NCBI GenBank assembly: GCA_964016885.1
Contig: OZ024743.1
Coordinates: 90,520,001-90,584,000 of the forward strand
Origin: Eledone cirrhosa
Taxonomy: Eukaryota
Reading direction: 5' to 3'
Length of the DNA stretch: 64,000 nt
The notes beneath the pieces were generated by a model. It was not told the DNA's origin. It ran no database searches and saw nothing but the letters and a program-made list of their open reading frames with translations. This document shows, piece after piece, positions 2,663-60,844 of this stretch. Position numbers and translations under genes: made by a program. Numbering within the stretch: position 1 is the stretch's first letter; each line of letters starts with the position of its first letter.

Positions 2663-3016
2663 AAAATGGCTTCTACAGGACTAGAACTGTTTCATTCAAA
2701 AGAGATCATCGGGAAAGGCATGATTATTTTTTTTTAATGAAATATTTCTAGTTCTGTAGAAGCCATTTCTATATTAAACATGATGTTTATTCTCTACTCA
2801 TGTATTGAGTACCTTACTGTGGTTACCCCAGGACTCACACATACAAACACACACGCATATATATTATATATATGAGAGAGAGAGGACTGATAATCCTGTG
2901 AGTTCACAGGTGAAACTCCTGAGTAACAAGGTTCAGCACTTAGCCATAATAAAGGATATTTAAATTCTACTTCAAGTATTGAATAATCGTTCTCACATCT
3001 GTCAGTATCACATAGA

Positions 3017-21100: not shown

Positions 21101-24100
21101 GGCCATCTTTCCTGCTAAAGCAGGGGTTAGCCTTGCTGGCCCCATAACAAGCTTCCCTATCGTGTGCATCCCTCTTTGTTCTTACTTTGACTTTCATTTC
21201 CTCCATCTTTAGCCATGTCTTTCTTGGTCTTCCCTTTCACCTACTTCCTTCCACATTTGTTTCCATCATTTCATCTTATTCATCCTTCTTCAACACATGG
21301 CTCAAACTATCTCATTTCATTCCTTTTCACAACATTCATCATTGGCTCTATTCCTCTCAGCCAGTCATTTCAATCTTCCCTCAACACATAAACCAACCTA
21401 ACTCATTCCATCCCCCTTTAAAACATTCATTGGTTCCATTCCTATCATTATACAAGTGTTTAATTTTAAACTAAATCTTATTAAATATATGTTAACATCT
21501 ATTTACCAATTCTTTTTACTTTCTAGAGTAGTGAAGAAATTGAACGGAAAAATGTAACTCGTCTTTTGGCCAAAATGTTCTCTGATCCTGACTCTGAACT
21601 GGCATCACAGCACCGTGTTCTTTGGAATTGTTTTTTAGGAAGGTCAGTAAAAGACTGCAGTTTTTAATATTTTTAGTAGTTTTTGTTACACATATAATGG
21701 AGGCACATGGCTTAGTGGTTAGAGCATTGGCCTTGCAATCGAAAGGTTGTGAGTTCAATTTTCAGACCGAGTGATGTGTTGTTTCCTTGAGCAAGACACT
21801 TTATTTCACATTGCTCCAGTTTACTCAGCTGTAGAAATGAGATGATAGGGACTGGGGTCCCTATCATTCCACTGCAAAGTGGTCCACAGCAAAAAAGCAC
21901 CCAGCACTCACTGTAAATGAGGTTGTTGTTAGGAAGGGCATCCAGCTGTAGAAATCAAGGCAGAATCAGTTCCCGTCCCACCCTTGCAAACAGGGAAAAG
22001 CGGACATTAAATGATGATGATGATATCTTTTGTACAACTATTAACCTGTTTCATAGAAACTTGATAAAAAATTATACCTCCTTTCTTGTTAGCAACTCTT
22101 ATCTATTCATATCTAAATCAAAATATTGACATAAATTTCATTTCTATAAAATGGGATTTTATTGAAATGTGTAGAAGTTATGTGTTAATTATAAATATTG
22201 TAATGAAAGTGTTTAGTTTTTCATAGACATCTAATTTCTAATGTATTAAAATTAGGATAGTTTGTAAAATATGTGTATGGGTTTCACAACAAAATAAGTA
22301 TAAGAGTCACTGATCTTTAACTATTAATCTTGTTTAGATTTGTTAAAATCTTGTTTTTCTTGTATAACTAACTATGCTTGCTTGGATGAAATGAATTTTG
22401 AAAATTCAACTATGCTGGTGCCATGTTTGTCGTGGTGTTTCTTATTCTGTAGATTGTGGGATCGTGTTTAACCCTTTAGCATTCAAAGCGACAAAAACCG
22501 ACAAGATTATGTCCCCTTTCATTTATTCAAACCGACAAAAACCGACATTTAATACCACACGGAGATTTCCTTCTAAAAATAAACATTGACATCATCGAAA
22601 TCTCGTCAATTCGAGATTACTGCGAGATAAAGCCCTTACGCGCGAAAATTAACTCTTAGTATAGTTAAAGAACTTGCGATAACACGTGTTTTTAACGTTG
22701 AAACTGTAACATGGCTTCCGAAAGTAGCGACAACGAATTTGAAGGTTTTACGTCCGACGACATTCGAGATCAAAAAGAAACAGAAGATAATATCAGTGAT
22801 TTATCTTCAAACGAATCAGATATATTTATTTCTGATATATCTGATAATGATGATAGTTACTTTGAAAGTGAAAGAGAAGATTTGACTGACACCATTGAAA
22901 AAACAGCAACGTGGTTGAAAGAAACAACATCGATACATGTTTCGGATTTTACTGAAAATATTGGACCACAACACACATTACCACCCGATGCTAAAGCACT
23001 GGATTATTATTTTTTATTTTTACCACAATCTTTCTTCGAAGTTGTGGCAAATCGCTATGCACAACAACAAATTTCTAATATCGGAAAACCCGATCTGTTA
23101 TGTTGTCCGACAGATTCTGCCGAAATGAAAGCGTTTTTTACCATAAATATTATGTTTGGTATTAAACAATTTCCACGACTGTGGAATTATTGGAGTACTG
23201 ATATAAGGTTTGTTGACCCTTATATATCTAGTATTATGGCAAAAACGAGATTCATTAAATTAAACCAATATTTGCATCTGGTTGATACTTCAAATGCCCC
23301 TGGTAGAAATGAATCAAATTACGACCCACTGTACAAAGTACGACCATTAATTGAAATATTGTCAGAAAAATTTAAAAGTGTGTATAAACTTATATATTGG
23401 AAACTTTCTGTTACGTAATTTTACACCGTACATTTACAGAGTACATTGCCAATATTATTTTGACCGGTGAAAAGGTTTTATACATTTTTTTCAATGAAAA
23501 TATTTGCCTGGAATGTAGAGAAAGACTAAAACCGTGTACTGATTACACCTGCATTTTTAATTAATTCACCTGTTCGGAAAACTGCTAGAATTGATGGAAA
23601 TCAGCATCTAGATCATTATTGGATTTTTTTGCAACAAATCTAACAGATAAGGCAGATAAAGTTTAAATTTTTGTGTTTATCCATAAAGTTATTACTTTTA
23701 CACCTGTTAATTAATTTCACCTGCCCATAAAAGTCAAATTTAACAAAAATAAATCGGGTAAAAATATATAATTGTAAATTATAGTTATTTAAACATCTAC
23801 TGACAAAATTTCTACTTTTACACCTGTTAATTAATTTCACCTGCCCATAAAAGTCAAATTTAACAAAAATAAATCAGGTAAAAATATATAATTGTAAATT
23901 ATAGTTATTTAAACATCTACTGACAAAATTTCAAGTCTGCACATAGAAAATTAAAGTAATTACAAACAAATAAAATTGATAACCCTCTTGAGTATAATTA
24001 AGTGAAAATAATGCGAATAGATGAACATGACATTTGACAATTCAATGTGAATGCTAAAGGGTTAAAGGAAATGGGTCATGGCAATCTCTGAGATATCAGT

Positions 24101-27100
24101 GGCTTCATTTAAGTACTGACTTGGTTTGTTATGATCTGTCTAATCCTTGATAGCAGGGAAAATGGACATTGAAGAGCCTTTAGGTTGTGCTCCAAACACC
24201 AGGTTAATAATGAGAAAGTTATATTGCTAAAGCCCTCTAAGTTATAGATTATTTTCAATATGATTTGAGGATTTTAGGAGCAATATCTTTCATTAGAAAT
24301 ATGGTAACAAAAGGATTAAAGTGTTTATCTTTATTTAAATATTGGATTTTATATAAGAACCTTTGTTATTATGCTCCAAACACCAGCCCAATATGAATGT
24401 TAATTATATTACTAAATCTCTATTATTTTCAATATGATTTGAGAATTGTAGGCAGTGTGTTTCATTAGAAATATACTAACTTCCATAATGATGTATAAAA
24501 TTCTTACCAGGTTAATAATGAGAAAGTTAGTTCTGTTACTAAATTCTTCCAAGTTCTTGATTATTTTCATTAGAAATATTATAATGAAAGGGTTAAGATT
24601 ATAATGTAATGTCTTTGTCAATGTTTTAGCCTTTAATCATCTACTTCTCTTTATGGATAAATTATTAAAATGATGTTTCTTCTTTGCTAGATTCAATGAT
24701 ATCAGTACTGGAGTGAGAACAGTTTGTGTTCAGTATGCACAACGTTTCATTCTCCATCATTCCGATTTAGTGAGAGATATTATTGGTGAGTATTTCAAAT
24801 CTCTTTATTTACTTCCAGTTTTTGCTATGACAGTAGGTTTTCCCTACATGTCTAAGCATTTAACACTTTTGATAGCAAACCACCTGAAACTTTCCCTGGT
24901 TTTATGATACAAAACTTAGTTTTAAAGTGTTAATATTTTCATTTAAATCCCTTCCATGATAATTTTACTTATGAACTTTAACCCTTTTGATACTAAATGG
25001 CCTGAAACTGTTCTTGGTTCTACGATACAGAACTGTTTTAAAGGATTTATATCTACCCAAAAACCTTCCATAATAATTTTATGCCTCAAACAACTAAATA
25101 TTGAGAAATCTTTCCAAATTCTTGATTTATTTTCAAAATTATTTTAAAATCACAGGCAGAAATATGGTATTATCTGTGAAACCATTACAAGATCATTAGG
25201 ATATTAAAATAATAAAGATGATAATTAAAATATACGAAGTGGTTTAAGAAATATGTATATTTTATTATTTTAGAACAACTGAAAGTTCGTCAGCATGATC
25301 CTGAAGAGACAGTTCGAATGGAGGTTGTATCAGCAGTTCTGAATGCTGCAAAGAAAGATTTTAAAATGATAACTGATGAACTGCTAGCTTTTATTAAAGA
25401 ACGAACTCTAGACAAGAAGGTAAGTTACATATTAGCTTCTTTAATTTAAATACTAACTATAAAATGTTAAACTGTTTTCGACAAATGTTTGTTGAATGCA
25501 GATATGGTTCTGCTTATGTGGATATTTATTTATTTGATTTGTTGGTTTGCTAATAATATCAACTGTCTAACTAATGTGAGGAAGTATATCTTACTCACAT
25601 GTTCCATATTGTGGTATGGTTTCTACAGCTGGATGTGCTTTTTAATGCCAATCACTTTGCAGAGTATCAGCTGCATTTAAGCATGGCGTCAGCAGTGCCA
25701 CTTTGCAGAGTAAAGTGTATCTGGTTCAGAATTGATACTCTATATACTTGCATGTCATAAGAAGTGAGTGAAATGGTTCTCCTTTTCTGGAAGGAAGTGG
25801 CTGTTCATACCTGAAATGGGATGGGCTCTACCGGGCTTAAAGTGCCTCCATGACACCATGCATCTTCTTTCTCTCTCTGAGCGATACTCATGGAAAAATT
25901 TTCGGCCAAAATGTTAGCAAAGAGAAGATTATTTAGAACAGTGAGACAGAATTATAGGATAGCAACGATTGTAGATATATGGATGAATGAACCGAAGGTT
26001 AAGGAGACAAGAAGAAAATGTTATATTATACATTGCATTTTCGTAGAAGTCGACTGACCATTTAATAAGAGTTGACAAATTCTGAGTTTTGTCCTCCGTA
26101 ACATTCTTATTTATATTTGGTGCAAGTAGGGAGTGAAAGAGAGAGAGGGACGTATATGTTAGAGAGAGTGGGGGTAATAGCGATTTTGAGGAGCGAGGGA
26201 ATCTATTTTTATGAATCCTGGAAAAATTTTCGGCCAAAATGTCACTGGACCGAGATCTTTGGCGGTACTCAGTAATAGAGAAGACCCGCCTTACCTAAAT
26301 ACAAAGTAAAACCTACTACAGTCAGTAGGCATCTCTAACAAAATACACCCCCCATCCCACCACCCCCACCCCATCCACACCGCCCCTTTAAATGTAAAGT
26401 TATGTTGGTGCCACAACATCCAGGCCGAAACAAATGAGATCGTGTAGGTGTCACGACAAAAAAACACACAGTCCACGCTGTAATGTGGCCGTGTAGGCAA
26501 CACGGTAAAAACCTCCCAGTCCCACACTGTAAATGTGGTTGGTGTTAGGAAGGGCATCCAGCCGTAGAAAACCCGCCAGACAGTCCTATGCGAGCAAGAC
26601 AACCACTCTTGCCTCAAGTGGGAAAACTCCCGTCCAAACCCATGCAAGCGTGGAACATGGACGTTAAATGATGATGATGATGAAACAGTAAATGTAATTG
26701 TGAAGATTTTATAAACAAAATCACAAACAAATTCCATCGTTTAATGCTGTTGAATCTGATTTTTTCATTTAGTTTAAGATCCGGCGAGAAGCATTACTTG
26801 GGTTGGCCCATCTCTACAAGACCTATATCAATCAAGATCCTGATAACACGGCCATTGCAAAACGTCTTGCATGGGTTAAAGATAAAGTTTTTCATGCTTA
26901 TTATCAACATAGTCCCGAAGACAGGTAAATATTTGTAATATATTTAATTTTTTATAAATGAGATTTAGTAAGCAAATTGTAAAAATTGTTGAATGAAATG
27001 GAATAGATCTTTGTTAGTTTTGATGATGAATGTTCCTGTTGTTTTATCAATGGAACAACTTGCTTGTGGAATTAACGTGCAAGTGGCTGAGCATTCCACT

Positions 27101-30100
27101 GATGTACCTTTTATGTATAATTCTTTCACAAATGGGTTTAGGTAATGAAATTGTGAAAATTGTTAATGGAATGGAACAGACCATCATCAGTTTTTGAGGA
27201 TTAGTGTTCCAGTTTGAGCTACGGAATAGCTTTATCATGAAATTAACATGCAAGTGACTGTGCATTCCACTGACGTGTACTTTTAATGTAGTTCTCAGGC
27301 AGATTCAACGAGACACAGAATGTGACAAAGGCGGCCCTTTGAATTACAAGTACTGTTCATCCAACAGGCTTCAAAACAGTTTCTGTGTATCCAATTCCAT
27401 TCACTTGGCTTGGGACAACCTGTGACTATGGTAAAAGACATTTACCCAATATGGCAGGCAGAGAGATTGAACTTGAGACTGATTACAAAGTGAACTTCTC
27501 AATCATTTAGCTATGTTGCATACACAGTTTTCTTGTTATCAGTGTATGAAATAAAATTTATTTTATGGCAAGATGATAAAGTATTCTGTCTCAGTTTGTC
27601 TTCTATTTGTAATATGTGTATTCACAAAATATTTTTGTGTTAGATACAGTCATTGCATGCTGATGTGTGTGTTTCAAGAACATTTTTTTAATCCTTTTTG
27701 AAATCACATTAAAATGTACAAAGCTGCATTATGAGTGCATCACATATGAATGCATCACATATGCAATTTTTCAAGTAAATATACTATAAACATTTGAATC
27801 AACAAACCTGTTTGCAGTTATTTTCTGTCAAATCATTACAGGATGTTAAGAGATAGAGGTTATTGTTTTAATTTTCTTTTACGTTAGGTTACTTGTAGAA
27901 CGCATTTTTAACACTTGTCTTGTGCCATACACACTGCCGACATCAGAAAGAATGAAACGTCTTCACAACCTCTATACATCTCTAGACGAACATGCCCTCA
28001 AGTAAGCTTCTTTCTTTGATTTTTCTCTTTCTTGAAAGTAAACTACATTTTCAATTAAACTTAATTTTCAAATAAACATTTGTATCCAGTTAGCATTCTC
28101 TTATCTTTTTATTTATTTTACTGGTTTCAGTCTGAAATTGTGTCCATGCTAGGACACTGCCAGTTGATGATATTGACCCCTGCACATATTTTTTCAATTA
28201 TGTGGCTTTTTTTGTAGAACCACTAAATTATGGGTCATAAATACAGACATGCATACATATATATATATATATTATCATCATCGTTATTTGATGTCTCTTT
28301 TCTTGGATGAGTCGCCACAGACAGGGTCAGTACTCAAATCTAACTGCTAACCTCTCAGATAGCCAGGGGCTTGCATCTCGCTTACTTCTGTTCGTACACT
28401 CTGCTGAGTGCTCAGATAGGCTGGGAGCTCATATCTCGTTTACATGTTCTTGTGTTCTACCATGTTCATTTTATTGTGGCACCAACACTAGAGAAGTTGC
28501 CCTCCCTATCACTAACACTAGGGAGATTGTCATGTCTTCTCTCAACCCCTTGTTTAGCAAGTTTTCTACAGGTGGATGCTCTCTTCCTATCACCAACCAC
28601 TTTACAGAGAATACTGGGCATGTTTTACCATGTCACTGATATTACATAGGTTATTGTGCCTTTGGGTCTACTGAAGAGTTTTCTCGACTCATTTTTGGCA
28701 TGATTTCTACAGTTAGATGACCTTCCTATCACCAACCACTTTACAGAGTGTACTGGGTGTGTTTTATTGTGTCACCAACAGTAGAAAGGTTGTTGAGTCT
28801 TTCATACAACTGAAGAGTCCTGATCTTTTTTAGCAAAGTTTCTACAGCAGGATGCTCTTCTTTGTAATACTTGCTTTCCCAACTTAAAATTGATGCTAAT
28901 GCTTTTATTTCTATTTTCCAGAGCATTCAATGAATTGTTGAAGTACCAACACGGGTGCGTTGATTTTCTTCATATTTTTGTATCTTCTGAGTTTGTTATA
29001 ATTTTGCAGGATATGTCAAGCTGTGTTATGGTTGTATCTTATGTGGATGAGGTCTCTAGGGATGTAGTATGTCAAGCTCACAATTGTAAGGTTGTATGTT
29101 TGATTCTTGAACTGGGTGGCCTGTTGTGTCCTTGAAGAGCACACTTTATTTCATTTTGCTCCAGTTCACTTAATTGAAAAATGAGTACCAGCAGCAGTTA
29201 ACTGCTAACCTTGTGACAGACTAGCATCCCATCCAGAGGCAGTCCTGTACTCTCAGTTGCTTAACTTCAATGAAATAGGTTAAGGGACAGACTTTCTTTT
29301 TCAAAATGTAATGTGGCATTTCTATGAATGTATGTTTCATAAGTTGTTAATATGTAGAAAAAGAGCATAGGAGAGATAACCAAGTCTTGACATATACTCT
29401 TAGGTCTCAAATAATTTCACTCTCCCCTATTTTTCAGATATCTCCCTGCGCTTACTAAATTTTGCTAATCTATCTCTGGTGAAATTTTATTTTAAATGGT
29501 AGCATTCCTGCAACAATTAATTTTCTTTAGATATTAAAAAACATTATACATGACAAAAAAAAGTATATTACTAGAAACCCCAAACGTTATAAAATTAATA
29601 GTGTGGGTTGGGGTTCTCAATATGTAAACTAAACGACCAATTCTGTTGTTTTTTTCTCTTAAATCAATGGAGACAACCTAGAAAAATTACCAATTTTCCA
29701 AGCCGCTTGCTTATTCCCCCTTCATTATTTGGGACCCAAGAGTACCTGAATTTACAAGGTGAAGATAGGAAGACTAATAATGAATTGCAGATGATGATGG
29801 GAATAGAACCAATGATGAATGTTGCGAAAAGAAATGTTCATATTTGATTCAGTTATGCGTATTCTGAGTTCAAATTCCACCTCCTTCTGTCAGGTGCTGC
29901 AACTGACAGACAGTATCAGAAAGTATGGAAAGACCAATAGAAACATTTTCTTGGTTCGATCTGACAATCTTTTGTACCAGGAAAATACCCCATTTTGTTT
30001 TGGCAAAGTGACTGGAACTCTGCTACATAAATCATTAACCAGATGGTTCTAACTTAATTAATTCTTTCTCTTTCAGAGTTCGAGTATGTGTGCTGCAATG

Positions 30101-33100
30101 GATTGATGCTCTTGAGCAAAACTTGCAGGGATGCCCTGCCCCCGTCGTAGCCAAATTAATAGCTCTTGCCAGTATGTATACTATCTTCTGTAATAATAAT
30201 AATAATAATTGTCTTTTCTGTGTGTATGTCTAAATATCTAGAAGTGTCCAATTTCATGAAGAATTGATACTCTCAATAGAGAGTAGAGAAGACTGTTCAG
30301 TCTTGCCGAGTACATGACAATTCTCTAAAGCCAGTGTCATTATAAAATTCCCTCAGTGTTTTCTGTAAAGTGGTAGTGCCAGTGCTACGATAAAATTCAC
30401 CCAGTATTTTTTGTAAAGTGGTAGTGCTGGTGTCATGATAAAATGCAGTCAGTACACTCTGTGGAGCAGTAGTGCTGAGGCCATGATAAAATGCACTCAG
30501 TACACTCTGAAGCAGTGGTGCTGCTACCACGATAAAATGCACTCAGTATTTTCTGTAAAGTGCTAGTGCCAATCCCACAATAAAATGCACTCTACAAAAT
30601 GGTTGGCATTAAGAATGACAGTTCTGCATGAGTAAATCACAGCCATCTGATCTGACTTGTCTCACAATGGGACAACTCGTTTAACCCATGCTAGCTTGGA
30701 AAAATGGACGTTAAATGGTGATGATGATATCCAACTGTAAAACCAAGCTGTAAACACAAGCAAGATGTGGTCACCTGTCTAGACTTAGTATGTGATATCT
30801 CATCCATCATTATTTTTATGTTTGCTTTCCATCCCATACTTGCATGGTAAGCAGACATAAAAATAATAATAATGATGACTATCTCCCATAAATAAATAAA
30901 ATATTTCAAATGTATACTTGATGTGTGTGTTGTAAAATTTACTTACATCCAACATTGCGATTTCTATTTTCAGGACAATTACCTGAACCAAACAAAGCTC
31001 AGGAACATCTTAAGAAATTCAATCATATTTTGAGAGAGGATAAACGTGTTCGCCATTGTCTGAAAGCACTGGTCAGCCCAGACTGCACATGCCGCAAGGC
31101 TGAAGATGCTGTTGTAATTATTTTCTTTCCATTTGCATAAATTTTCTTTAAACCCTTTTGTTGCCATATTTCTAATGAAATACACTGCCTGTGATTTTCA
31201 AATAATTTGATGAGGGGGTTAGTAATGTAATAAAAAAAGTGCACTTGTTGAAGTGTCGAATGGGATACTTTGCAGTATCTGATCTGGCTCTGTGTATTCT
31301 CGCCTCCTGCCAGAAGTTGCGATTAATACATAGTATCAGCAATGGAAACATTGTTCCCCTTGTTCGATTTGATGATCGGTTCCCTTTTTATTTAAACAAA
31401 GATTCTTATGTAGAAATTATGAAATTTGTTCACTAAATGTAAACACTTGAAAGTAAACAGCTTTGTATCAAAAGGGTTAAGGAATATTTCTACTTGCTTC
31501 AGATATGAATAATTGAAAATAATCAACTTTCTCAAGTGTATCATTGGCCCTGTAGTATGTTATTTAGTGAATTATTTTTATCATCAGGCCTGCTATATTT
31601 TACAGAAAGAAATATTGCGAAAGGTTGGGAATCCTGGCCAGCAAACACCTTTTTATACAGCCGTGAAATCATTATTAGAGCGTATAGCTCCAGTGATGAT
31701 AGATGCAGATGCTATCAGTGCCTTGGTGAAGTACAACTGTGATGTAATAAATGGCTTGATCTATGTGGATGATGGAATTCTGGCAGCTGGGGAGAAAGGT
31801 CTTAAGCTTCTTCTGGTTAGTATTAAAATGTTTTTATATTCTTTTATGATGAATTGGTAGAGCCATTTGAACATCGGATAAAATGCTTTGTGATATTTGT
31901 TCTGGCTCTCTGCACTTATTTCAAAACCTGCTGAGGTTAATTCCACCTTTCATCCTTTGAAGGTTAATAAAAAAAAAAGAAGAAAAAAAGTACCATTTGA
32001 GTATGAGGGTAGATTCTTCCTCTCCTATCCCTTTCTCACTTCATCTCTCTCCTCCTCTGAATCAGCTGTGTTCAAACATGGAGAGAAGATGGGCTCCACC
32101 AGATTTTAAAAAATGCCCATGACATGTTGCCTGCACCCTTATGACTCCATCAGCAGTTATGGGTGTATGTATATATATTTCGTTTTTGTATTTCTTATGC
32201 AAGATTTCTTATCTGAAAATGTTTGCAGTGGAATGATAGTGACCCCAGTCCCTATCATCTCATTTCTACAGCTGAGTAAACTGGAGCAATGGGAAATAAA
32301 GTGTCTTGCTCAAGGAAACAACACATCACCCGGTCAGAGAATTGAACTCACAACCTTTCGATTGCAAGGCCAATGCTCTAATCACTAAGCCATGTGCCTC
32401 CATTTCAATTTATTATAAATTTCCATTTGTTTAGTTTAGTAGCTGGATGGTTGTTTATTGCCAAAGCTCTTTTGTCACACATTCTGTGACCTCAGTGACT
32501 AATTTGTTACTTTGTGTCTCTCCTTTGTTCTACACCATCTTGTTTTTGTGAGCTGGAAATTTATAATAAATTGAAGTAAAATCCAACAGGTGTGTGTGTG
32601 TTTTTATCAGCAGCACGACCCTCCAAAAGTATAACTATATATATATATTCATTACCTTTATACTGTTGAAAGACATTCATAGAGACAAATTTCCAAAATT
32701 ATTTATCTTAATTTATTTCTTTATTTATTTTTACAGGCTTTGTCCCACGTCTTCCCGCCCTGTTTTAACCGAGAAAGTGTTTTTGAAGATTTACTGACAT
32801 TCCTGAAAAATGAAGATGAAGTTATATGTGAGTACTTAACACTTTTCTTTACCATATTTCTAATGACATGCACTCCATATGATTTTCAATAAATTTAAGA
32901 TTTGGAAGGATTTAGTAATAGAAGTAACTTTCACATTATTAATCCTTTAGCATTTAAACTGGCAATATCTGGCCAGAATTCTCTCACCTCTTTCTGTTCA
33001 AACCGGCTGTAACCAGCCACTCATACTGATGCTAAGGTATTGTTCTCAAAATAGATAATATCAAAATCTCATAGATTTGATATTATGTGAGGTAAAGCCT

Positions 33101-36100: not shown

Positions 36101-36876
36101 CTATCCATATCTGGCCAGAATTCTCTCACCTCTTTCTGTTCAAACCGGCTGTGGGTGACCGATCATACTGATATTAAGGTAATAAATAATTTCATAGATT
36201 CGATATCATTCGAGATAAAGCCTTTACCATGAAAATATAATAGTAAATATAGAGCAATGTAATGCAAAAGGGTTAAACTAAAAACACATTGAAAATTAAG
36301 TCCAAATTTTCACAATATATCCAACAGTAGAAATTCTGTAGACATTTGCATTAACAAAGCTGCTTTTAAATATTTTCTGCTACATCATTACAAGATTTTA
36401 AATTTATATCGTATTTTAAACAATATTGAGTGACTATTTTTCTTCTTTTTCTTCTTCCTTCTCTGAAGCATGTCAAAAAGTCATTAAACCCTGAATCTGC
36501 AAATTTCCTGACCTCCATCGTATCAATGGGACATATTGCTCAAATATGTCCAGGAGAATTTAGTACTGAAATGAAAAATGTTGTGTCCAAGTTAATTGTT
36601 AAAGATTTATTAATGCAAGATCGAGTAAGTTGATATATTAATTTTGATAATATATTGTTTTTTGTTTTTAATGTTTAATAAATTTAATATTATTCTTTCT
36701 TTTATGGGGAGAGAAAAAGCATTCAACTGTAGAAACCTTGCCAAAACAATGTATGTGAGATGTGGTCCACCAACTTGTCTAAGATGATAGTCCAACCCAT
36801 GCCAGCATAGGAAATGGGCATAAAATGACCACACACACACTCACACATATAGCAATGGGTCCATATACGCCTTTAC

Positions 36877-36917
<41 letters not shown>

Positions 36918-39900
36918 TACAACAGTGACATATACAGGTACTTAAGTTTCGTTGGGTTATACACCCCAACTCATTCAGCCTGTCATATAAAATAAGAATG
37001 GCTACCTCCACAGGTTGATTTGACATACATATATCATCACAATTATCATTTTATGACCATTTTCCCTATTAGTGAGGGTTGTATCGGTGCATTTTATCGT
37101 GGTAGCAGTACTAAGAAGGTTGTTGCGTCCTTGACACAACTAGAGTCCTCCCAACCCTTTGTTAGGCATGGTTACTATGACTAAATACCCTTCCGAACAT
37201 CATCCAAATTACAGAGTGTACTGTGTACATTTTATTGTGGCACCACCACCATCACATGATACAGTGTACTGGGTGTATTTTATTGTGGCACCAGCACCAC
37301 CACATGATACAGTTTACTGGGTGTATTTTATTGTGGTACCAGCACCACCACCACATGATACAGTGTACTGGGTGTATTTTATCATGGCACCAGCACCACC
37401 ACCACATGATACAGTGTACTGGGTGTATTTTATTGTGGTACCAGCACCACCACCACATGATACAGTGTACTGGGTGTATTTTATCATGGCACCAGCACCA
37501 CCACCACATGATACAGTGTACTGGGTGTATTTTATTGTGGTACCAGCACCACCACCACATGATACAGTGTACTGGGTGTATTTTATCATGGCACCAGCAC
37601 CACCACCACATGATACAGTGTACTGGGTGTATTTTATTGTGGTACCAGCACCACCACCACATGATACAGTGTACTGGGTGTATTTTATCATGGCACCAGC
37701 ACCACCACCACATGATACAGTGTACTGGGTGTATTTTATTGTGGTACCAGCACCACCACCACATGATACAGTGTACTGGGTGTATTTTATCATGGCACCA
37801 GCACCACTACCACATGATACAGTGTACTGGGTGTATTTTATTGTGGTACCAGCACCACCACCACATGATACAGTGTACTGGGTGTATTTTATCATGGCAA
37901 CAACACTACTACATGATACAGTGTACTGGGTGTATTTTATTGTGGCACCAGCACCACCACATGATACAGTGTACTGGGTGTATTTTATCATGGCAACAAC
38001 ACTACTACATGATACAGTGTACTGGGTGTATTTTATTGTGGCACCAGCACCACCACATGATACAGTGTACTGGGTGTATTTTATCATGGCAACAACACTA
38101 CTACATGATACAGTGTACTGGGTGTATTTTATTGTGGCACCAGCACCACCACATGATACAGTGTACTGGGTGTATTTTATCATGGCAACAACACTACTAC
38201 ATGATACAGTGTACTGGGTGTATTTTATTGTGGCACCAGCACCACCACATGATACAGTGTACTGGGTGTATTTTATTGTGGTACCAGCACCACCACCACA
38301 TGATACAGTGTACTGGGTGTATTTTATCATGGCACCAGCACCACCACCACATGATACAGTGTACTGGGTGTATTTTATTGTGGTACCAGCACCACCACCA
38401 CATGATACAGTGTACTGGGTGTATTTTATCATGGCAACAACACTACTACATGATACAGTGTACTGGGTGTATTTTATTGTGGCACCAGCACCACCACATG
38501 ATACAGTGTACTGGGTGTATTTTATCATGGCAACAACACTACTACATGATACAGTGTACTGGGTGTATTTTATTGTGGCACCAGCACCACCACATGATAC
38601 AGTGTACTGGGTGTATTTTATTGTGGCACCAGCACTACCACCACATGATACAGTGTACTGGGTGTATTTTATTGTGGTACCAGCACCACCACCACATGAT
38701 ACAGTGTACTGGGTGTATTTTATTGTGGCACCAGCACCACCACCACATGATACAGTGTACTGGGTGTATTTTATTGTGGTACCAGCACCACCACCACATG
38801 ATACAGTGTACTGGGTGTATTTTATTGTGGCACCAGCACCACCACCACATGATACAGTGTACTGGGTGTATTTTATTGTGGCACCAGCACCACCACATGA
38901 TAGAGTGTACTGGGTGTATTTTATTGTGGCACCAGCACCACCACATGATAGAGTGTACTGGGTGTATTTTATTGTGGCACCAGCACCACCACATGATGCA
39001 GTGTACTGGGTGTATTTTATTGTGGTACCAGCACCACCACCACATGATACAGTGTACTGGGTGTATTTTATTGTGGCACCAGCACCACCACCACATGATA
39101 CAGTGTTCTGGGTGTATTTTATTGTGGGACCAGCACCACCACATGATACAGTGTACTGGGTGTATTTTATTGTGGTACCAGCACCACCACCACATGATAC
39201 AGTGTACTGGGTGTATTTTATTGTGGCACCAGCACCACCACCACATGATACAGTGTACTGGGTGTATTTTATTGTGGCACCAGCACCACCACCACATGAT
39301 ACAGTGTACTGGGTGTATTTTATTGTGGTACCAGCACCACCACCACATGATACAGTGTACTGGGTGTATTTTATCATGGCAACAACACTACCACCACATG
39401 ATACAGTGTACTGGGTGTATTTTATTGTGGTACCAGCACCACCACCACATGATACAGTGTACTGGGTGTATTTTATTGTGGCACCAGCACCACCACATGA
39501 TACAGTGTACTGGGTGTATTTTATTGTGGCACCAGCACCACCACATGATACAGTGTACTGGGTGTATTTTATTGTGGCACCAGCACCACCACATGATACA
39601 GTGTACTGGGTGTATTTTATTGTGGCACCAGCACCACCACCACATGATACAGTGTACTGGGTGTATTTTATCATGGCAACAACACTACCACCACATGATA
39701 CAGTGTACTGGGTGTATTTTATTGTGGCACCAGCACCACCACCACATGATACAGTGTACTGGGTGTATTTTATTGTGGCACCAGCACCACCACATGATAC
39801 AGTGTACTGGGTGTATTTTATTGTGGCACCAGCACCACCACCACATGATACAGAGTACTGGGTGTATTTTATTGTGGCACCAGCACTACCACCACATGAT

Positions 39901-41098
39901 ACAGTGTACTGGGTGTATTTTATTGTGGTACCAGCACCACCACCACATGATACAGTGTACTGGGTGTATTTTATCATGGCAACAACACTACCACCACATG
40001 ATACAGTGTACTGGGTGTATTTTATTGTGGTACCAGCACCACCACCACATGATACAGTGTACTGGGTGTATTTTATTGTGGTACCAGCACCACCACCACA
40101 TGATACAGTGTACTGGGTGTATTTTATTGTGGCACCAGCACCACCACCACATGATACAGTGTACTGGGTGTATTTTATTGTGGCACCAGCACCACCACAT
40201 GATACAGTGTACTGGGTGTATTTTATTGTGGCACCAGCACCACCACATGATACAGTGTACTGGGTGTATTTTATTGTGGCACCAGCACCACCACATGATA
40301 CAGTGTACTGGGTGTATTTTATTGTGGCACCAGCACCACCACATGATACAGTGTACTGGGTGTATTTTATTGTGGCACCAGCACCACCACCACATGATAC
40401 AGTGTACTGGGTGTATTTTATTGTGGCACCAGCACCACCACCACATGATACAGTGTACTGGGTGTATTTTATTGTGGCACCAGCACCACCACATGATACA
40501 GTGTACTGGGTGTATTTTATTGTGGCACCAGCACCACCACCACATGATACAGTGTACTGGGTGTATTTTATTGTGGCACCAGCACCACCACATGATACAG
40601 TGTACTGGGTGTATTTTATTGTGGCACCAGCACCACCACATGATACAGTTTACTGGGTGTATTTTATTGTGGTACCAGCACCACCACATGATACAGTGTA
40701 CTGGGTGTATTTTATTGTGGTACCAGCACCACCACCACATGATACAGTGTACTGGGTGTATTTTATTGTGGTACCAGCACCACCACCACATGATACAGTG
40801 TACTGGGTGTATTTTATCATGGCAACAACACTACCACCACATGATACAGTGTACTGGGTGTATTTTATTGTGGCACCAGCACCACCACCACATGATACAG
40901 TGTACTGGGTGTATTTTATTGTGGCACCAGCACCACCACCACATGATACAGTGTACTGGGTGTATTTTATCATGGCAACAACACTACCACCACATGATAC
41001 AGTGTACTGGGTGTATTTTATCATGGCAACAACACTACCATTTTACTCCTTTCATATTTAAGCCAAGTTTTTTATTTAGATTAATTCACCCCAAACTT

Positions 41099-41143
<45 letters not shown>

Positions 41144-43953
41144 ATGTGTATGTGTATGTATATATATATATGTGAATGTATTTATGTGTATGTGTGTGTG
41201 CGTGTTAGTGATATAACTGAATCAGTGACAAGATATAAATTAGATTCTGTTCACTTCATTGATTTTTGATTGATTCTTTAATTGATAAAGTTTTGTATTT
41301 ATTATACATTATTGTTATGCTAAATGGAGGGCGGTGGATTGGTAGTATCGGTGGAGGGTCGGACGCCATGCTTTCCAGCATAGTTAAGTCCCTTTACGAT
41401 CTGAGTTCAAATCCCGCCGAGGTTGACTTTGCCTTTCATCCTTACGGGGTTGATAAAATAGAGTACCAGTAATGCACTGGGTAATTGCTGGCCTTGAGCC
41501 TAAAGTTGAAACAATTATTATTATGCTAAATGAGTAACTAGACGTGTAAAGTGTATTAAAAATGGATACTTTTATATTTGTTCATCCTCCAGACCCAGGG
41601 TGTACATGTTCATGATAGCTGGTATGCAGATCATGCTATTTCTGAAGAAACTCAAGCAAAGGTGAGTGTTTCATTTCCTTGTCCACTACAGCAGGCAATG
41701 TTGTTTGAGAGCTTAGGTCAAAATACCTTGCAGTATTTGTTCCAACTCTCTTCACTCTGTGTTTAAATTCCACTGAGGCTAGGTGGTGTATTGGCAGAAT
41801 TGTTAGAGTTGCACAGTCTACCCTGTAAGATGTTCATACTGGTGGCACATGTGGCACCAGTCCACTCTAAGGTGATCATGCTGATGACGTGACAAAAAGT
41901 GTCCAGTCCACTCTGTAAGGTGGTTGTTACTGGTGACACATTGATAAAACACCTAGTCCACATTTTAAAGTGGTTGACAATGGGAAGGGCATCCAACCGT
42001 AGAAATTGAGCCAAAATTTGTGTGAGCAAGATTTTGGTCACCCGACCTGACTTGTTTCAAACATGGAAAAAAATGAACCTTAAACAATGATGGTGGATGA
42101 GATGCTTTGTGGTATTTCTTTTGACTATTTGCATTTGAAAATTATCTGAGGCCTACCTGGGTTGTAGAGTTAATCTGTCACCTCCTGGCTCTTGGCTGAT
42201 CTTAATGGAGTTCAATCTATTGCAAGCATTTAGGATAGGTCTCCAGTTTGATGATAATCATAAATTTTAAAAATTTAATAGCCCCCCCCCCCCCCATAGT
42301 TTTCCAGTAATGGCAGCCATATATAGCTAATTTATTAACCCCTTTGAGATTTAGGGCAGCATTTATTTGCTTTTTCCAAACCCCTAAATGCAATGTTTAG
42401 AAACATTATTAAAACAAGATTATTTTCTAAAATGAGGATTCTTTATATTAATTGTTATATGCAATTTGCATTAAAAAAAAAGTTGTCTATCTAGAAGAAA
42501 TGGTAATGTCTTAATTTTAATCTGTGCAGGTTTTGGCTATGAAAATGTTGGTTCGCTGGTTGTTGGGTTTACGGAATAATGCAGGAAATTCAGCAACATC
42601 TACGTTACGGCTACTTTATACTGTGATAATCCATGAGGGTGATCTTATGGAGAGAGGAAAGATAAAGTAAGTATTTACAATATATATTTTTAATACTGAT
42701 GGCAAGACCCCAGCATGGCCTCAGCCTGTCGGCTGGAACATGTAATAGAGTAAAGGGTTTAGATTGATATCCAGTGATTTTGATCTCATTGTTTACAATT
42801 TGCTCAACAAAATCATTTGGAGTACACATGGGATTAATTGTAAGACAACATTCCCAGCCAGAAGCCTAGCTAGGAAAACAGTTATTGTATCTACAGATTA
42901 ACATATGAAAATGTTAAAGTACTCTCAATTTCATCAATTGAAACAGCCAATAACCTGCTAGTTTAGCACACACATGTATATATAATACTTGATGTTTGTG
43001 TTGGTTCGATGTCATGTTTGATGATATATATAAAGTAAAAGAGATATAGAGATGGACAGAATTAACATATGGGTTGAAGGAGGAGGATACATACTGAGAA
43101 AAGTGACATGGAAAGCGTGTGAGAGATCAATGCTATACTAGAGCACAGAAAATAGGAGCATACACTTACACACAAGTAATTGTCTGTTGATCTTTTGTGT
43201 GAAATTTGTTTTCTTTTCACCTTTTCTCCCTTTTTTTCCCTCATATATAAAATCCTGGAAAATATATAATCTTTTTATTTTTTTTTCCAATTTGTTTTCT
43301 TTTCCTCAAACCATTGCCTTCTTCTTTCTGTCCTCAAGGGGTAATTTACTCACTTTATTCAACTATTTTATAGTTGATATCTAAATTGTGGTAGCTTTTC
43401 AAATTTTCAAGCGTGCCCAAATTTTTTTCAGAAACCTATTTATACATGCATTTAAATTATTTTATTTAAAGCAAACCTGAATTGGCCCGACTCCGGCTAC
43501 AAGCAGGCTGTTGTATGTTAAAGTTGGCAGAAGAACCCTGTTTTGCAGAGCTCATCACCAGAGAACAGTTCCAAGCATTAGCATTGCTTATTAATGTAAG
43601 ATTTAAAAAATTTTATTTAGTGTTATTTTACTCAAACTACTTTCAGCTGCTTTTTGTTCTTCAGTTTTTATGTTATGTGTTCATCTACTGAATGTTGGTG
43701 TGGACATTTAGAAAACATGGCAAATAAAGTATTCCCTATTCACTTTTTATATATATGTATATATATATTTATATATATGGAACAACCCATCTAACCCATG
43801 CTAATGTGGAAAGTGGATGTTAAATGGTGATGATGATGATATATATTGTCTGACAAATGACTTGATCTGAGACCCTGTGTTGAAACTAAAACAGTTACTG
43901 CATAAGTCATTTTAGCCATTTGAAAACACATAAAATGTACATACATGCATTCA

Positions 43954-46762: not shown

Positions 46763-49700
46763 TTAATACTTTTCTGAGTGGATAATTAGTTTATTAATTT
46801 ATTAATATATCTTCTCCTTTCATTGAGATGCCTACATATTTGAGGCAGATAATTTTATAGTCATATATAAATATTATATATATTATATATAAAGCATGGC
46901 TGTTTCCAGTGGGTGTTCAGAAAGTACAATAACTAGGGTAAGAATGGGATGGAAGGAGTTCAGGGAGCTACTGCCACTGCTAGCTGCAAAAGGCTTCTCC
47001 CTCAAAATGAAAGGCAGACTGTATGATGCATGTATCCGAACAGCAATGTTACATGGTAGTGAGACCTGGGCGCTGAAGGTGGAAGACTTATGTAGATTAG
47101 AAAGAAACGAAGCCTGCATGCTCCGATGGATGTATAATAGTAATATACGCGAACGGCAAAGCATAAATGAATTGAGAGAGAGGCTGAGCATAAGAGGAAT
47201 CAAATGCTGTGTGCAGGAGAGGAGGTTATGTTGGTATGGACATGTGATGCGTATGAAGGATGACAGCTGCATAAAAAGGTGCAGAGCACTAGAAGTCAAT
47301 GGAAACCGCGGAGTGGGGAGACCCAAGAAGACCTGGGATGAGTGATAAAAGCCAACCTTACTCAATTACACCTCTCAAAGGCGATGACACATGACCGTGA
47401 CCTCTGGCGTCACGCAGTAATACAGAGTACCTGACCTCCCATGGGTACAAGCTGAAGCATATACACAATATGTCCCCACACCCTCCCACTGCAAAGTGGT
47501 CGTGGCGGTTCCACGGCAAAAAAGCACCCAGCCCACATTGTAAAGTGGACGTGTAGGCACCACGGACAAAAGCACCCAGCACTCACTGTAAATGAGGTTG
47601 GTGTCAGGAAGGGCATCCAGCTGTAGAAATCAAGCCAAAATCAGTTCCTGTATGAGCAAGGCATGGTCAGCCGACCAGACACTGCCCACAACAGGGCAAC
47701 CCGTCTAACCCATGCTAGCATGGAAGAACGGACGTAAAACGGTGATGATGATGGTGTGTGTGTGTGTATTTATGCCCCGTAACAAAACAGTGACAAAAAA
47801 AAAAAATGATAAAATAAATGGCAGATTAGAAAAAACGTACTGTGTTTGATGTGGTTGACTAAATTAAGGTGGTGCCCCAGCATGGCTGCAGTCTAATGCC
47901 TGAAACCAATAAAAGAATATGAACTAAATATTTCATAAAATCATTTGTCTTCAGCATTTGCGTTACTCTATATATACTATTGTATTTTCATGGTAAAAGC
48001 TTTATCTCGTATAAGATGGAATCTATAAGATTTTGATAATATTTGTTTTGAGAACAATACCTTAACATCAGTATGAGTGGCCAATTACAGCTGGTTTGAA
48101 CAGAAAGCAGCGAGAGAATTGTGGCTGGAAACAGCCGATTTAAATGCTAAAGGGTTAAATTTTTGGAAAAATATATTTGAGGTGTTATTTCATTTTCCTC
48201 TATTTTCAGATGTCTTTGGTTTGTGATGGATCCATTGATGAGTCGGAGTGAAGATTACAATTATGCGTTCTTTAGACGAATGATTGAAGATATTAAACAG
48301 ACTAAAGATGCACAAGGTCCAGAAGATGAGGAAATGAATAAGGTAAGATAACACATGATCTAGTTGTAGAAACTGTCTTTCACTATTTTCTTATTTATAT
48401 ATGAAATTGCAGGAGCTGGTGCAGTAATGTACCAGCTTCAGCAGTCCGCAATCAGAAGGAGGGAGGTAGGTGTAAAAGACAAATTCACTATCTTCTATTC
48501 AGTATAAGACACAGGCAGGCATTTTTGAAATGCGCCTTAAAAGCCATCAAATAGAGTATTTTAATATATATTGTATCAAGCCTTTAGATATGTATTGTTA
48601 TTTTTTTGTTATATAAATGTTCTTTGTTGCAGTTATCTTTATCACCATTTCACATTTGTTTTCCATTCTGGTATAGGTTGGATGGGTGAGAAAACCATGT
48701 TTTAATCATGTTCCATATTTTTGTGTGGACTCTATGGTTGGATGTCCTTAACACCAACCACTTTACAGAGAAAGTACATGGTACATACTAACATATGGCA
48801 GTGTACTGGATGCATTTTATTGTGGCACTGTTAGTAGAAAGGTTGTCACGTACTTGACAAAACCTGAGTGTCCTCTGTACTCTATATTCTATCTTGTATT
48901 GCATTGTACAAAATATGGTTTGGTTGAAGTAAAGAAATTATATGTATATTCTTAATTCTATATTTTATTAGAAATTATATGCTGTCTGTGACATTGCGTT
49001 GGGACTGATGATGACAAAAATATCAAATGTTGTTCTCAAAGATGTTGTCATTGAACCTCTTCTTCCAATAAAACTGTTCACCAAACCAGATCATGTAAGT
49101 ATTGCTATTAACCCTTTCATTATCATATTTCTCATGGAAGATTACTGTCTTATGATTTGCAATTAATTTTTTAAATAATCAAGAATTTGATGGGTTTTAG
49201 CAATATAACTAATTTTCTTCTTATTAAGCTTAACAAAGGTTCTTAAATAAAATTATGATAGAAAATGTAAATATCTTAAAATGTGTAGTTTTGAATTGTA
49301 GAATCAATGGCAGTTTCAGGCAGATATCCAAAGGTTGATGTTGCATTGTTGCTTTGTTTTCTTATCGCTTTCTCTTTTCTTCCTCATTACTATCTCTCAT
49401 TGTCATTATTGAAAATATTAGCCTGAAACCACTCCTGGTTTTATGATATAAAACTGTTTAAAGTATTTATATTTATCTAAAAAGCTTCCATCATAATTTT
49501 ATATAAGAAAATTTGTTTAAATTATGTTCCAAACACCAGTGCCCTATTCACCACCATTGACACGGAGTTGGCTACCTGCAGGTATGAGATTTGCAAGCTT
49601 GAATAGCTCTTCCAATGCTTCTCCCTCACCCTCCATGGGCTTCCATTTGCATATAATAGTTAGAGATGGGGAGAGCAGGAGAGAACATCAATGCACACTC

Positions 49701-58205: not shown

Positions 58206-58916
58206 CTTCTCTATTATTAAGGATAATAGTATATTTTTGTCATGAAATGTCAATGTTTAACTCTTAACTTGATGTATTATTTTGTTTCTATATTTTATGT
58301 ATAATGATCATCTGCACCTTGCTATTTTTTTAAATTAATTCATAACAAGTACATTTTCAGAATTAATGTTGTTGATTTTATAAAATAAACAAAAGTTTAT
58401 ATATATTTGTGAGTAAGTGTGTCTGTCCCCTTCCAGTTCTCTCCTTTGTTTTGTTTCACTAGCTCTTTTGGATTAACAACTGTAAGGAGTACTCAAAACT
58501 CCCCCTAGTCTCCCATGGCTTACTTGCTCTATATGGGCGTTTAAATTGATTAAATAAATATGCTGCTAACCACTACTTCCTCTTCCCCAGACCAGTTTCT
58601 ATGTGAAGGATTATACCTCATCCATCAGACCATCACTTTCTCTATGCTCCCAATCACTACTCCCTCTTCTCAAGACCCTTCTCAGTGGAAGAATGTACCA
58701 CTTCTGTCACCATCACACCACCACCACCATTTCTCACTCTTTCACCAGCAAACATGCTGCTACTCCAATACTTCTTCCATTATACTTTCACTACTCCTTA
58801 TTAATCCCTTTGACACACTCTCCCTTCACAAGGCTCTCACACTCCTTTGCCCACTCCTCTCATATTCAACTCCTGGCTTAAATAAGCAGAAGCAATGATG
58901 AAAAGGAAGCTCATCA

Positions 58917-60844
58917 GTGCTGGAGCCATGTTAGAATACACCCAGTACACTCTGTAATGTGGTAGTGCTGGTGTCATGTTAGAATACATCCAGTACACTC
59001 TATAATGTGGTAGTGCTGGTGCCATGTTAGAATACACCCAGTACACTCTGTAATTTGGTAGTGCTGGTGCCATGTTAGAATACACCCAGTACACTCTGTA
59101 ATGTGGTAGTGCTGGTGCCATGTTAGAATACATCCAGTACACTCTGTAATGTGGTAGTGCTGGTGTCATGTTAGAATACATCCAGTACACTCTGTAATGT
59201 GGTAGTGCTGGTGCCATGTTAGAATACACCCAGTACACTCTGTAATGTGGTAGTGCTGGTGCCATGTTAGAATACATCCAGTACACTCTGTAATGTGGTA
59301 GTGCTGGTGCCATGTTAGAATACATCCAGTACACTCTGTAATGTGGTAGTGCTGGTGTCATGTTAGAATACATCCAGTACACTCTATAATGTGGTAGTGC
59401 TGGTGCCATGTTAGAATACACCCAGTACACTCTGTAATGTGGTAGTGCTGGTGCCATGTTAGAATACATCCAGTACACTCTATAATGTGGTAGTGCTGGT
59501 GCCATGTTAGAATACATCCAGTACACTCTGTAATGTGGTAGTGCTGGTGCCATGTTAGAATACATCCAGTACACTCTATAATGTGGTAGTGCTGGTGTCG
59601 TGTTAGAATACATCCAGTACACTCTATAATGTGGTAGTGCTGGTGCCATGTTAGAATACACCCAGTACACTCTGTAATGTGGTAGTGCTGGTGTCATGTT
59701 AGAATACATCCAGTACACTCTATAATGTGGTAGTGCTGGTGCCATGTTAGAATACACCCAGTACACTCTGTAATGTGGTAGTGCTGGTGCCATGTTAGAA
59801 TACACCCAGTACACTCTGTAATGTGGTAGTGCTGGTGCCATGTTAGAATACACCCAGTACACTCTGTAATGTGGTAGTGCTGGTGTCATGTTAGAATACA
59901 TCCAGTACACTCTATAATGTGGTAGTGCTGGTGCCATGTTAGAATACACCCAGTACACTCTATAATGTGGTAGTGCTGGTGCCATGTTAGAATACACCCA
60001 GTACACTCTGTAATGTGGTAGTGCTGGTGTCATGTTAGAATACATCCAGTACACTCTATAATGTGGTAGTGCTGGTGCCATGTTAGAATACATCCAGTAC
60101 ACTCTGTAATGTGGTAGTGCTGGTGTCGTGTTAGAATACATCCAGTACACTCTATAATGTGGTAGTGCTGGTGCCATGTTAGAATACACCCAGTACACTC
60201 TGTAATGTGGTAGTGCTGGTGCCATGTTAGAATACATCCAGTACACTCTATAATGTGGTAGTGCTGGTGCCATGTTAGAATACACCCAGTACACTCTGTA
60301 ATGTGGTAGTGCTGGTGCCATGTTAGAATACATCCAGTACACTCTATAATGTGGTAGTGCTGGTGTTGTGTTAGAATACATCCAGTACACTCTATAATGT
60401 GGTAGTGCTGGTGCCATGTTAGAATACACCCAGTACACTCTGTAATGTGGTAGTGCTGGTGTCATGTTAGAATACATCCAGTACACTCTATAATGTGGTA
60501 GTGCTGGTGCCATGTTAGAATACACCCAGTACACTCTGTAATGTGGTAGTGCTGGTGTCGTGTTAGAATACATCCAGTACACTCTATAATGTAGTAGTGC
60601 TGGTGCCATGTTAGAATACATCCAGTACACTCTGTAATGTGGTAGTGCTGGTGCCATGTTAGAATACATCCAGTACACTCTATAATGTGGTAGTGCTGGT
60701 GCCATGTTAGAATACACCCAGTACACTCTGTAATGTGGTAGTGCTGGTGTCGTGTTAGAAAACATCCAGTACACTCTATAATGTAGTAGTGCTGGTGCCA
60801 TGTTAGAATACATCCAGTACACTCTGTAATGTGGTAGTGCTGGT
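58917..60844. repeat. Minisatellite, ~40 units of exactly 48 bp, downstream of the PDS5 CDS
   Basis: Unit gtgctggtgccatgttagaatacaYccagtacactctRtaatgtggta; related to the intron-20 array but on the opposite strand. Confidence 0.98.

What the first reader, a model, noticed from the sequence alone, without database searches (positions are those of the whole stretch)
37040..41040. A retrotransposon 3' UTR appears to seed minisatellites: graded series from 2.5 to ~77 copies in one window
Seen: the RTE 3' UTR holds ~2.5 copies of a ~48-bp repeat. Its unit at 47534-47581 aligns without gaps to the 58917 array unit at 31/48 positions by my count. A (GAT)n-tailed element at 30330-30729 has ~6 diverged units, and the arrays at 58917 and 37211 have ~40 and ~77. 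The intron-20 array runs directly out of a minus-strand tail remnant (37040-37230). Single or double units occur in other tails (~15890-16000, 28730-28780, 41850-41970, 48760-48830). Inference: an RTE/SINE-borne proto-satellite is dispersed by retrotransposition and then expands locally and independently at several loci. TE-derived satellites are known in general; I cannot say whether this family has been described.
Basis: partly seen in the sequence, partly recalled or inferred. Interest (0 to 1): 0.8.

Follow-up and report, generated by a model that had tools for sequence, protein, structure and literature searches.

The report
Retrotransposon tail repeat grows into minisatellites
A 48-letter repeat carried in the tail of jumping genes has grown in place into long tandem arrays at many sites of this animal genome, mostly on small chromosomes and above all on the smallest one, and the arrays likely also swap units with each other; this route to satellite DNA is known from reptiles and plants.

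Summary
In detail: 2.2, 5.5, 40 and 77 units of one ~48-bp family, and the 31/48 match (0 of 2000 shuffles reach it). Genome-wide, arrays of up to 505 units run into the retrotransposon tail on the matching side and strand in 24 of 59 cases (2 of 59 in each control flank). In-place growth is clearest in a young tRNA-headed SINE. It normally holds one unit, but 4-38 units between an intact head and tail in 35 copies, with no subfamily marks. In random stretches 6 of 13 copies on the smallest chromosome (C27, zinc-finger-rich) were expanded, against 0 of 18 elsewhere. One C27 copy of the window's own RTE-like family has at least 60 units. Two corrections: the window's arrays descend from an older lineage (85% alike, versus 65-71% to the 47-kb element), and old arrays are probably not independent, since eight arrays on five chromosomes share one consensus while their tails match only 50-64%. 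35 of 59 arrays lack a detectable tail, and unrelated arrays are abundant in this genome. A new member of a known kind (SINE-derived satellites; retrotransposon-UTR satellites), useful as a natural reporter of chromosome-specific repeat expansion.

The parts
37215..41040 (-). Minisatellite, 77 units of 48/51 bp, old ('gamma') lineage, in a PDS5 intron
37036..37214 (-). Tail remnant directly 3' of the array in element orientation: tail start, leader, one further decayed unit (37067-37112), tail end
58916..60844 (+). Minisatellite, 40 units of 48 bp (96% mean pairwise identity), gamma lineage; no tail detected by the profile, at most ~25 tail-like bases by eye
30330..30728 (+). Old headless element: 5.5 diverged gamma units, then tail and (GAT)n
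46899..47345 (+). 5'-truncated RTE-like LINE ('alpha' family), end of the reading frame (148 codons open)
   Evidence: relatives carry RVT_1
47346..47752 (+). Its 3' UTR: leader, 2.2 alpha units (47487-47592), tail (47597-47752) ending in (GAT)n
21705..22024 (+). tRNA-headed SINE with one partly deleted alpha unit and a shortened tail; the family that expands on C27
34175..35089 (-). Second LINE family ('beta'), end of frame 76% like alpha, about 3 units, same tail
26239..26681 (+). Beta-family 3' end with units and tail
3016..3251 (-). Beta-family 3' end with units and tail
15660..15910 (-). Old element, two units and tail
15954..16115 (+). Old element, one gamma unit and tail, head-to-head with the former
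28458..28860 (-). Gamma element of repeated leader-unit-tail-start modules
41868..42095 (+). Old element, about three units of another variant and tail
48637..48870 (-). Gamma leader, interrupted unit and tail
61685..62010 (+). Decayed gamma element (unit, weak tail)
36469..36624 (+). PDS5 exon upstream of the 37-kb array (start approximate)
41593..41661 (+). Next exon downstream of the array, read by eye from frame and splice sites

Best explanation
These are retrotransposon-derived minisatellites: a ~48-bp unit sits in the 3' region of several tail-sharing LINE families and a SINE, inserted copies carry it across the genome, it is amplified inside some copies (mostly on small chromosomes), likely by DNA-level slippage or unequal exchange after insertion, and arrays likely also exchange units between loci. 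Shown: shared unit and tail; tail adjacency; intact elements with 1-2 versus 4-60+ units; chromosome bias. Inferred: the first duplication uses the short direct repeat that brackets the single unit; later growth is by unequal exchange or conversion; old arrays are homogenised across chromosomes by ectopic conversion or templated insertion; the chromosome effect reflects a higher local rate of tandem duplication. No host function is needed or indicated.
For: Tail 3' of the array on the same strand in 24 of 59, versus 2 of 59 in each of three control flanks and 24 of 1500 random windows; in 17 it starts within 30 bases, versus 2 of 1500 (profile trained on random stretches only). SINE: 35 of 83 copies found hold 4-38 units. 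20 expanded and 38 unexpanded complete copies differ at no head or tail column (lowest p 0.11) and in divergence only 3.9% versus 2.9%. Flanks are unique except one segmental trio with 9, 11 and 12 units and one pair. Inner units carry the T of the downstream bracket repeat in 365 of 416, first units the C of the upstream one in 18 of 35. Alpha LINE: 2 units in 30 of 30 best copies and in 8 of 8 copies in random stretches, but at least 60 units behind the frame end at C27:17.44 Mb and 17 units behind the UTR leader on C12. Random stretches: expanded SINEs 6 of 13 on C27, 0 of 18 elsewhere, p 0.002. Best multi-unit hits on C27: 26 of 39 and 19 of 38; best single-unit hits 0 of 39. Old arrays on the four giant chromosomes (54% of the genome): 9 of 51 and 4 of 29, versus 30 of 39 for unexpanded old copies. 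Transfer: 8 arrays on 5 chromosomes share one consensus and 5 share another; among 20 tailed arrays units are 88% alike and the next 46 tail bases 71%, against 77% and 77% in 28 unexpanded modules. The LINE-type junction occurs in 19 of 35 expanded and 2 of 44 single-unit SINEs.
Against: 35 of 59 arrays, including the window's 58.9-kb one, have no detectable tail, and 5' flanks are mostly unrelated. Old arrays were found by similarity to two window arrays (best 40 of about 1000 candidates each, not all listed), which inflates their mutual likeness; of 3 non-alpha arrays in random stretches only 1 belongs to the homogeneous group. The most common shared changes are C>T or G>A (one is A>G) and recur in 17-39% of unexpanded modules. 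Only 2 strictly private variants amplified within one SINE array were found in 35 arrays, and the SINE family is star-like, so the subfamily test has low power. Four of the 9 random C27 arrays lie in one 10-kb stretch; by stretch the contrast is 6 of 20 versus 2 of 79. No beta-family UTR showed unit expansion in the random stretches, four on C27 included. Target-site duplications were rarely clear. One assembly; no second individual sized.
Confidence: 0.8

Rival explanations
1. Multi-unit master elements (SVA-like) were retrotransposed with their arrays already long; headless arrays are 5'-truncated copies.
For: Arrays begin abruptly in mid-unit beside unrelated DNA. The LINE-type junction is shared by 19 of 35 expanded SINEs. 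Two-unit SINE copies exist.
Against: No diagnostic head or tail variant. Unit numbers vary from 4 to 38, and from 9 to 12 in a duplicated trio. Tails beside near-identical old arrays are at most 77% alike. Retrotransposition spreads single-unit copies over all chromosomes, yet expanded ones cluster on C27.
Confidence: 0.1
2. Purely independent local expansion of each decayed seed, with no exchange between loci; likeness of arrays comes from convergent AT-ward decay and from how they were found.
For: The window's two arrays are only 81% alike; 2 of 3 random non-alpha arrays are private; shared changes are common mutation types.
Against: No pair among 28 unexpanded modules reaches 95%, whereas 13 arrays fall into two groups of identical consensus. 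A homogenising array should drift at the neutral rate (standard theory, recalled).
Confidence: 0.25
3. A free satellite came first and was captured by the LINE and SINE; arrays spread on their own and sit beside tails by homology-guided insertion.
For: 35 of 59 arrays are tail-less; arrays reach 24 kb. A precedent for satellite insertion into older clusters is in the abstract of PMC7403614.
Against: Arrays sit between intact SINE head and tail, or between LINE frame end and tail, at the place of the single unit. The unit is present in low copy in at least three LINE lineages of different age.
Confidence: 0.1
4. The arrays are assembly artefacts.
For: No independent read spanning an array was seen.
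Against: Units show ordered internal variant patterns, with 15 unit types in the 37-kb array, and locus-specific consensus units.
Confidence: 0.02

Closest known systems
SINE-derived satellites (sSat) of squamate reptiles, PMC10702118 (read: abstract, background, start of results, passages)
   Same: Dispersed retroposon copies with internal tandem amplification from a few to hundreds of units; element ends kept; plain SINEs evenly spread while arrays are regionally biased.
   Different: There the unit is a 70-290-nt piece of the SINE and the bias is subtelomeric. Here it is a 48-bp repeat already present in LINE UTRs, shared by LINE and SINE, and the bias is to small chromosomes, above all one.
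LTR-retrotransposon-derived satellites of Lathyrus sativus, PMC7004042 (abstract only)
   Same: Short tandem arrays inside dispersed retrotransposons expand occasionally, and mainly in one chromosomal setting.
   Different: Plant LTR elements and primary constrictions; here non-LTR elements, with intronic or dispersed arrays of 0.2-24 kb.
RTE-borne microsatellite families of Lepidoptera, PMC2887409 (abstract only)
   Same: RTE 3' ends seed families of tandem repeats with shared flanks.
   Different: Simple terminal repeats and slippage during retrotransposition; here an internal 48-bp unit, likely amplified after insertion.
Rsp-like and 1.688 euchromatic satellites of Drosophila, PMC7403614 (abstract only)
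   Same: Exchange of satellite units between dispersed clusters, as inferred here for the old lineage.
   Different: Not retroposon-derived; circular DNA was shown there and not tested here.
Octopus tRNA/CORE SINEs OR1, OR2 (named in passages of PMC4758252 and PMC4824008) and RTE-2_OV (passages of PMC9115989)
   Same: tRNA-headed SINE with a CORE-like body (CORE recognised from memory) and RTE-like LINEs.
   Different: No sequence comparison was possible. RTE-2_OV is described with a 3' UTR made mostly of a microsatellite, unlike these elements.

Membership tests
Retrotransposon-derived satellite or minisatellite | Unit homologous to part of a dispersed retroelement beyond chance | tested here: met
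   31/48, 0 of 2000 shuffles; 85-90% to the closest lineage
Retrotransposon-derived satellite or minisatellite | Arrays flanked by element sequence in register and orientation | tested here: met
   24 of 59 versus 2 of 59; both flanks kept in SINE and LINE cases; 35 of 59 old arrays lack a detectable tail
Retrotransposon-derived satellite or minisatellite | Expansion after insertion | tested here: met
   No subfamily marks, variable unit number, duplicated trio with 9, 11, 12 units; indirect, one genome
VNTR (polymorphic minisatellite) | Length differs between individuals | not testable with these tools
   No run spanned an array
Classical heterochromatic satellite | Very long centromeric or telomeric blocks | tested here: not met
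   Arrays seen are 0.2-24 kb and dispersed; the 37-kb one lies in a PDS5 intron; larger blocks elsewhere were not sought
Non-LTR retrotransposon (LINE) | Reverse transcriptase frame, 5' truncation, simple-repeat tail | tested here: met
   RVT_1 E 1.9e-21 in a 96%-alike relative; (GAT)n ends
RTE clade | RT groups with named RTE elements in a tree; single EN-RT frame | tested here: inconclusive
   Homologues are unnamed RT+PHD proteins; no tree with references; the C-terminal motif looks RTE-like from memory only
tRNA-derived SINE | tRNA-like head | tested here: inconclusive
   Rfam tRNA 22.3 bits, E 0.034, below the gathering score of 29
tRNA-derived SINE | Short, non-coding, high-copy, 3' end shared with a LINE | tested here: met
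   3800 first-look candidates, best 40 at 96-98%; shared unit and tail start
CORE-SINE (OR1/OR2) | CORE domain aligned to a reference | not testable with these tools
   No reference sequence available; resemblance recalled

The most novel reading that the evidence does not exclude
The smallest chromosome, rich in C2H2 zinc-finger arrays, is a chromosome-wide tandem-duplication hotspot in which about half of the copies of a young SINE have turned into minisatellites. The same process that drives zinc-finger array growth would be read out by this neutral SINE, while arrays across chromosomes are kept alike by ectopic exchange.
Probability: 0.3. Interest if true: 0.72.

Novelty: new member of a known kind. 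Interest (0 to 1): 0.48.

Why it matters
Satellite birth is usually reconstructed after the fact. Here thousands of near-identical young insertions start from one or two units in every chromosomal setting, so the rate of first duplication and of later growth can be mapped against chromosome size, recombination, chromatin and zinc-finger clusters. If the C27 effect holds, it gives a neutral measure of the duplication process acting on a gene family tied to cephalopod evolution (clusters on small chromosomes: passages of PMC9795677). In practice, these arrays can mislead repeat annotation and marker design.

Tried and rejected
Hairpin-driven instability or a structured RNA unit: not supported; RNA z-scores -2.2 to +1.1 in 8 stretches, DNA z-scores -0.7 to +1.6 for 6 units on both strands. 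Invasion of a seed by a foreign array at L065: rejected; it rested on a wrong TRF consensus, seen and corrected. The tree and counts used uncorrected consensus units; those replace them. Segmental duplication as the cause of the C27 cluster: only one trio (and one pair off C27) of 35 arrays share adjacent flanks. Local link to zinc-finger exons: only 1 of 6 array-bearing C27 stretches was motif-rich, so any effect looks chromosome-wide. Array size versus tail presence: no difference, p 0.28. The 48-bp unit tree is weakly resolved and is not used for order of events. Sequencing runs: no RNA holder listed; laid contigs did not span an array or show an orthologous site; a contig covers the 3' junction of the 58.9-kb array with 28 array bases, too few to count as bridging, and may come from the assembly's own sample. 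The window's 148-aa frame end has no Pfam hit. No genome-wide count of arrays was obtained. Rows dropped: two duplicate arrays in L105; arrays cut by a stretch end in the flank tests; one planned random stretch did not exist (59 of 60); the stricter rule missed one 5-unit C27 copy counted. Earlier findings of the scan: none.

Full report
Setting. The window is G000:C4:90520001-90584000 of a 3.0-Gb genome with four giant chromosomes (379-443 Mb, 54% of bases) and many small ones. It spans a PDS5 gene. That the animal is an octopod is my inference from recalled repeat families and zinc-finger clusters; no call named it.

Observation. All four copy numbers, the 31/48 match and the low-copy sites are real. 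The match exceeds all 2000 shuffles against the 58.9-kb array. The 37-kb array mixes 48- and 51-bp units in ordered runs and ends, on the minus strand, in a tail remnant. The 58.9-kb array has no tail by profile. The window holds 31 tail hits of 15 bits or more.

The family. In 590 kb of random stretches a tail profile found 80 hits at E 0.001. Reading 46 of them upstream showed several lineages sharing the tail: a young LINE 'alpha' (the window's 47-kb element; two units; best 40 copies 91-96% alike), a LINE 'beta' (about three units), a tRNA-headed SINE with one alpha unit, and an old lineage 'gamma' (75-88% alike) built of leader-unit-tail modules. In 1 of 30 gamma loci a LINE frame end runs into the modules with no poly-GAT between, which suggests that gamma is an older LINE UTR. 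An alpha relative carries RVT_1 with an inserted PHD finger. RTE-clade membership was not settled.

Arrays and tails. I fetched 52 array loci listed. TRF found arrays of 3 to 505 units. Of 63 arrays with four or more units, two duplicates were dropped and 59 had a full 3' flank. The tail lies 3' on the same strand in 24 of 59, against 2 of 59 for the 5' flank and for each reverse-complement control, and 24 of 1500 random windows. 35 of 59 have no tail, and 5' flanks are mostly unrelated. After correcting TRF consensus errors, 59 of 61 arrays are closer to gamma than to alpha (mean 89% versus 70%); the window's three are 85% versus 65-71%. The 47-kb element is thus a cousin of these arrays.

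Growth caught in a young element. A bystander at C27:3.577 Mb was an intact SINE with seven units. Searching with it returned SINEs with many units between a normal head and tail. Over all fetched loci, 83 SINE copies were found: 44 with one unit, 4 with two and 35 with 4-38. Expanded and unexpanded complete copies (20 and 38) share their head and tail alleles. Flanks are unique apart from a segmental trio with 9, 11 and 12 units and one pair. The single unit is bracketed by a short direct repeat; inner units mostly carry the downstream version of it (365 of 416) and first units often the upstream one (18 of 35), as expected if the first duplication used this microhomology (inference). Of 13 further long alpha-type arrays fetched, six had a SINE head, one stood behind an alpha frame end with at least 60 units (C27), one behind an alpha UTR leader with 17 units and a full tail (C12), four showed no head in the stretch and one was not resolved.

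Chromosome effect. C27 (22 Mb, 0.75% of the genome) holds 26 of 39 and 19 of 38 best multi-unit hits for queries from C27 and C19, and 0 of 39 best single-unit hits (counted by hand from the lists, tested). In random stretches 6 of 13 SINE copies on C27 had four or more units, against 0 of 12 on C22-C26 and 0 of 6 elsewhere. Family arrays lay in 6 of 20 C27 stretches and 2 of 79 others. Old arrays avoid the giant chromosomes (9 of 51; 4 of 29) while unexpanded gamma copies do not (30 of 39). C27 is rich in C2H2 motifs (114 in 200 kb, versus 4 in 300 kb on the giants) and in tandem arrays of every kind (84 arrays of 400 bp or more in 200 kb, versus 27 in 300 kb). Samples are small and partly clustered.

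Exchange between loci (inferred). Eight arrays on C6, C15, C18, C25 and C27 share one consensus unit and five more share a one-base variant. The four tailed members of the first group have tails 50-64% alike. Among 20 tailed arrays units are 88% and tail starts 71% alike; in 28 unexpanded modules both are 77%. A derived base is in 48 of 55 arrays and 7 of 41 modules. A junction typical of the two-unit LINE UTR is in 19 of 35 expanded and 2 of 44 single-unit SINEs. Selection by similarity and AT-ward mutation weaken this; I put transfer at about 0.65.

Context that lowers surprise. Arrays of 400 bp or more, microsatellites included, cover 25-47% of the random stretches, with many unrelated units. 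This genome amplifies many sequences; the retroelement unit is a frequent seed because it is abundant and pre-duplicated. Hairpin folding is not special.

Literature. The route is described for reptile SINEs (PMC10702118, parts and passages read), pea-family LTR elements (PMC7004042, abstract) and lepidopteran RTE microsatellites (PMC2887409, abstract); unit exchange between clusters is described for Drosophila (PMC7403614, abstract). Eight searches and passages of octopus repeat papers (PMC13282606; PMC9115989; PMC12988792; PMC9068888; PMC9795677) showed no description of this unit, its arrays or the chromosome bias. Repbase, Dfam, the 1994 octopus SINE paper, the 2015 genome paper (not held) and all supplements were not seen, so the SINE and LINE may already bear names.

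Verdict. Real; a new member of a known kind. Interest 0.48, carried mainly by the chromosome-specific expansion of a young SINE.

Noticed in passing
L121-L179, L240-L279 (random stretches): Long tandem arrays of many unrelated units cover 25-47% of bases; 11 of 99 stretches are 80% or more one array. Some units look, by eye, like pieces of other SINEs or LINEs (L153, L241, L245, L262, L278).
   Followed up: partly
C27 stretches L240, L251, L254, L255, L257; C26 stretch L263: Dense C2H2 zinc-finger arrays (84-bp period); C27 also has the lowest CpG observed/expected ratio of the four groups, 0.36.
   Followed up: partly
L119:1731-3197 (-): The LINE's reverse transcriptase is interrupted by a PHD finger; the same layout occurs in many unnamed homologues, among them ones from Hydractinia, Branchiostoma and Mercenaria.
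   Followed up: partly
window 8511-9044 (+) and 21972-22024: A further LINE with a very short UTR and no units; by eye its end matches the end of the SINE, so the SINE tail may be a chimera of two LINE families.
   Followed up: no
window 15660-16115; L077; L121: Tail-sharing elements or arrays in head-to-head inverted pairs.
   Followed up: no
L236 (C27:20.88 Mb): Expanded SINE (31 units) flanked by a direct repeat of at least 22 bases, a likely long target-site duplication.
   Followed up: partly
L073:1362-1779, L261:1182-1590, L245:8855-9309: Beta-family 3' ends duplicated as larger 112-139-bp modules rather than as 48-bp units.
   Followed up: no
window 44025-44166, 23693-23932, 5406-5636: Unrelated short tandem duplications: 41 bp x 3.5, 120 bp x 2, 118 bp x 1.9.
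   Followed up: no
run X5 laid on window 37209-37290: Contigs from a run labelled as another organism match the unit and show go-back joints, a hint that tandem forms exist in a relative.
   Followed up: no
L065:5980-6784: TRF printed the neighbouring array's consensus for this array; consensus units from TRF need rechecking where two arrays share a period.
   Followed up: yes
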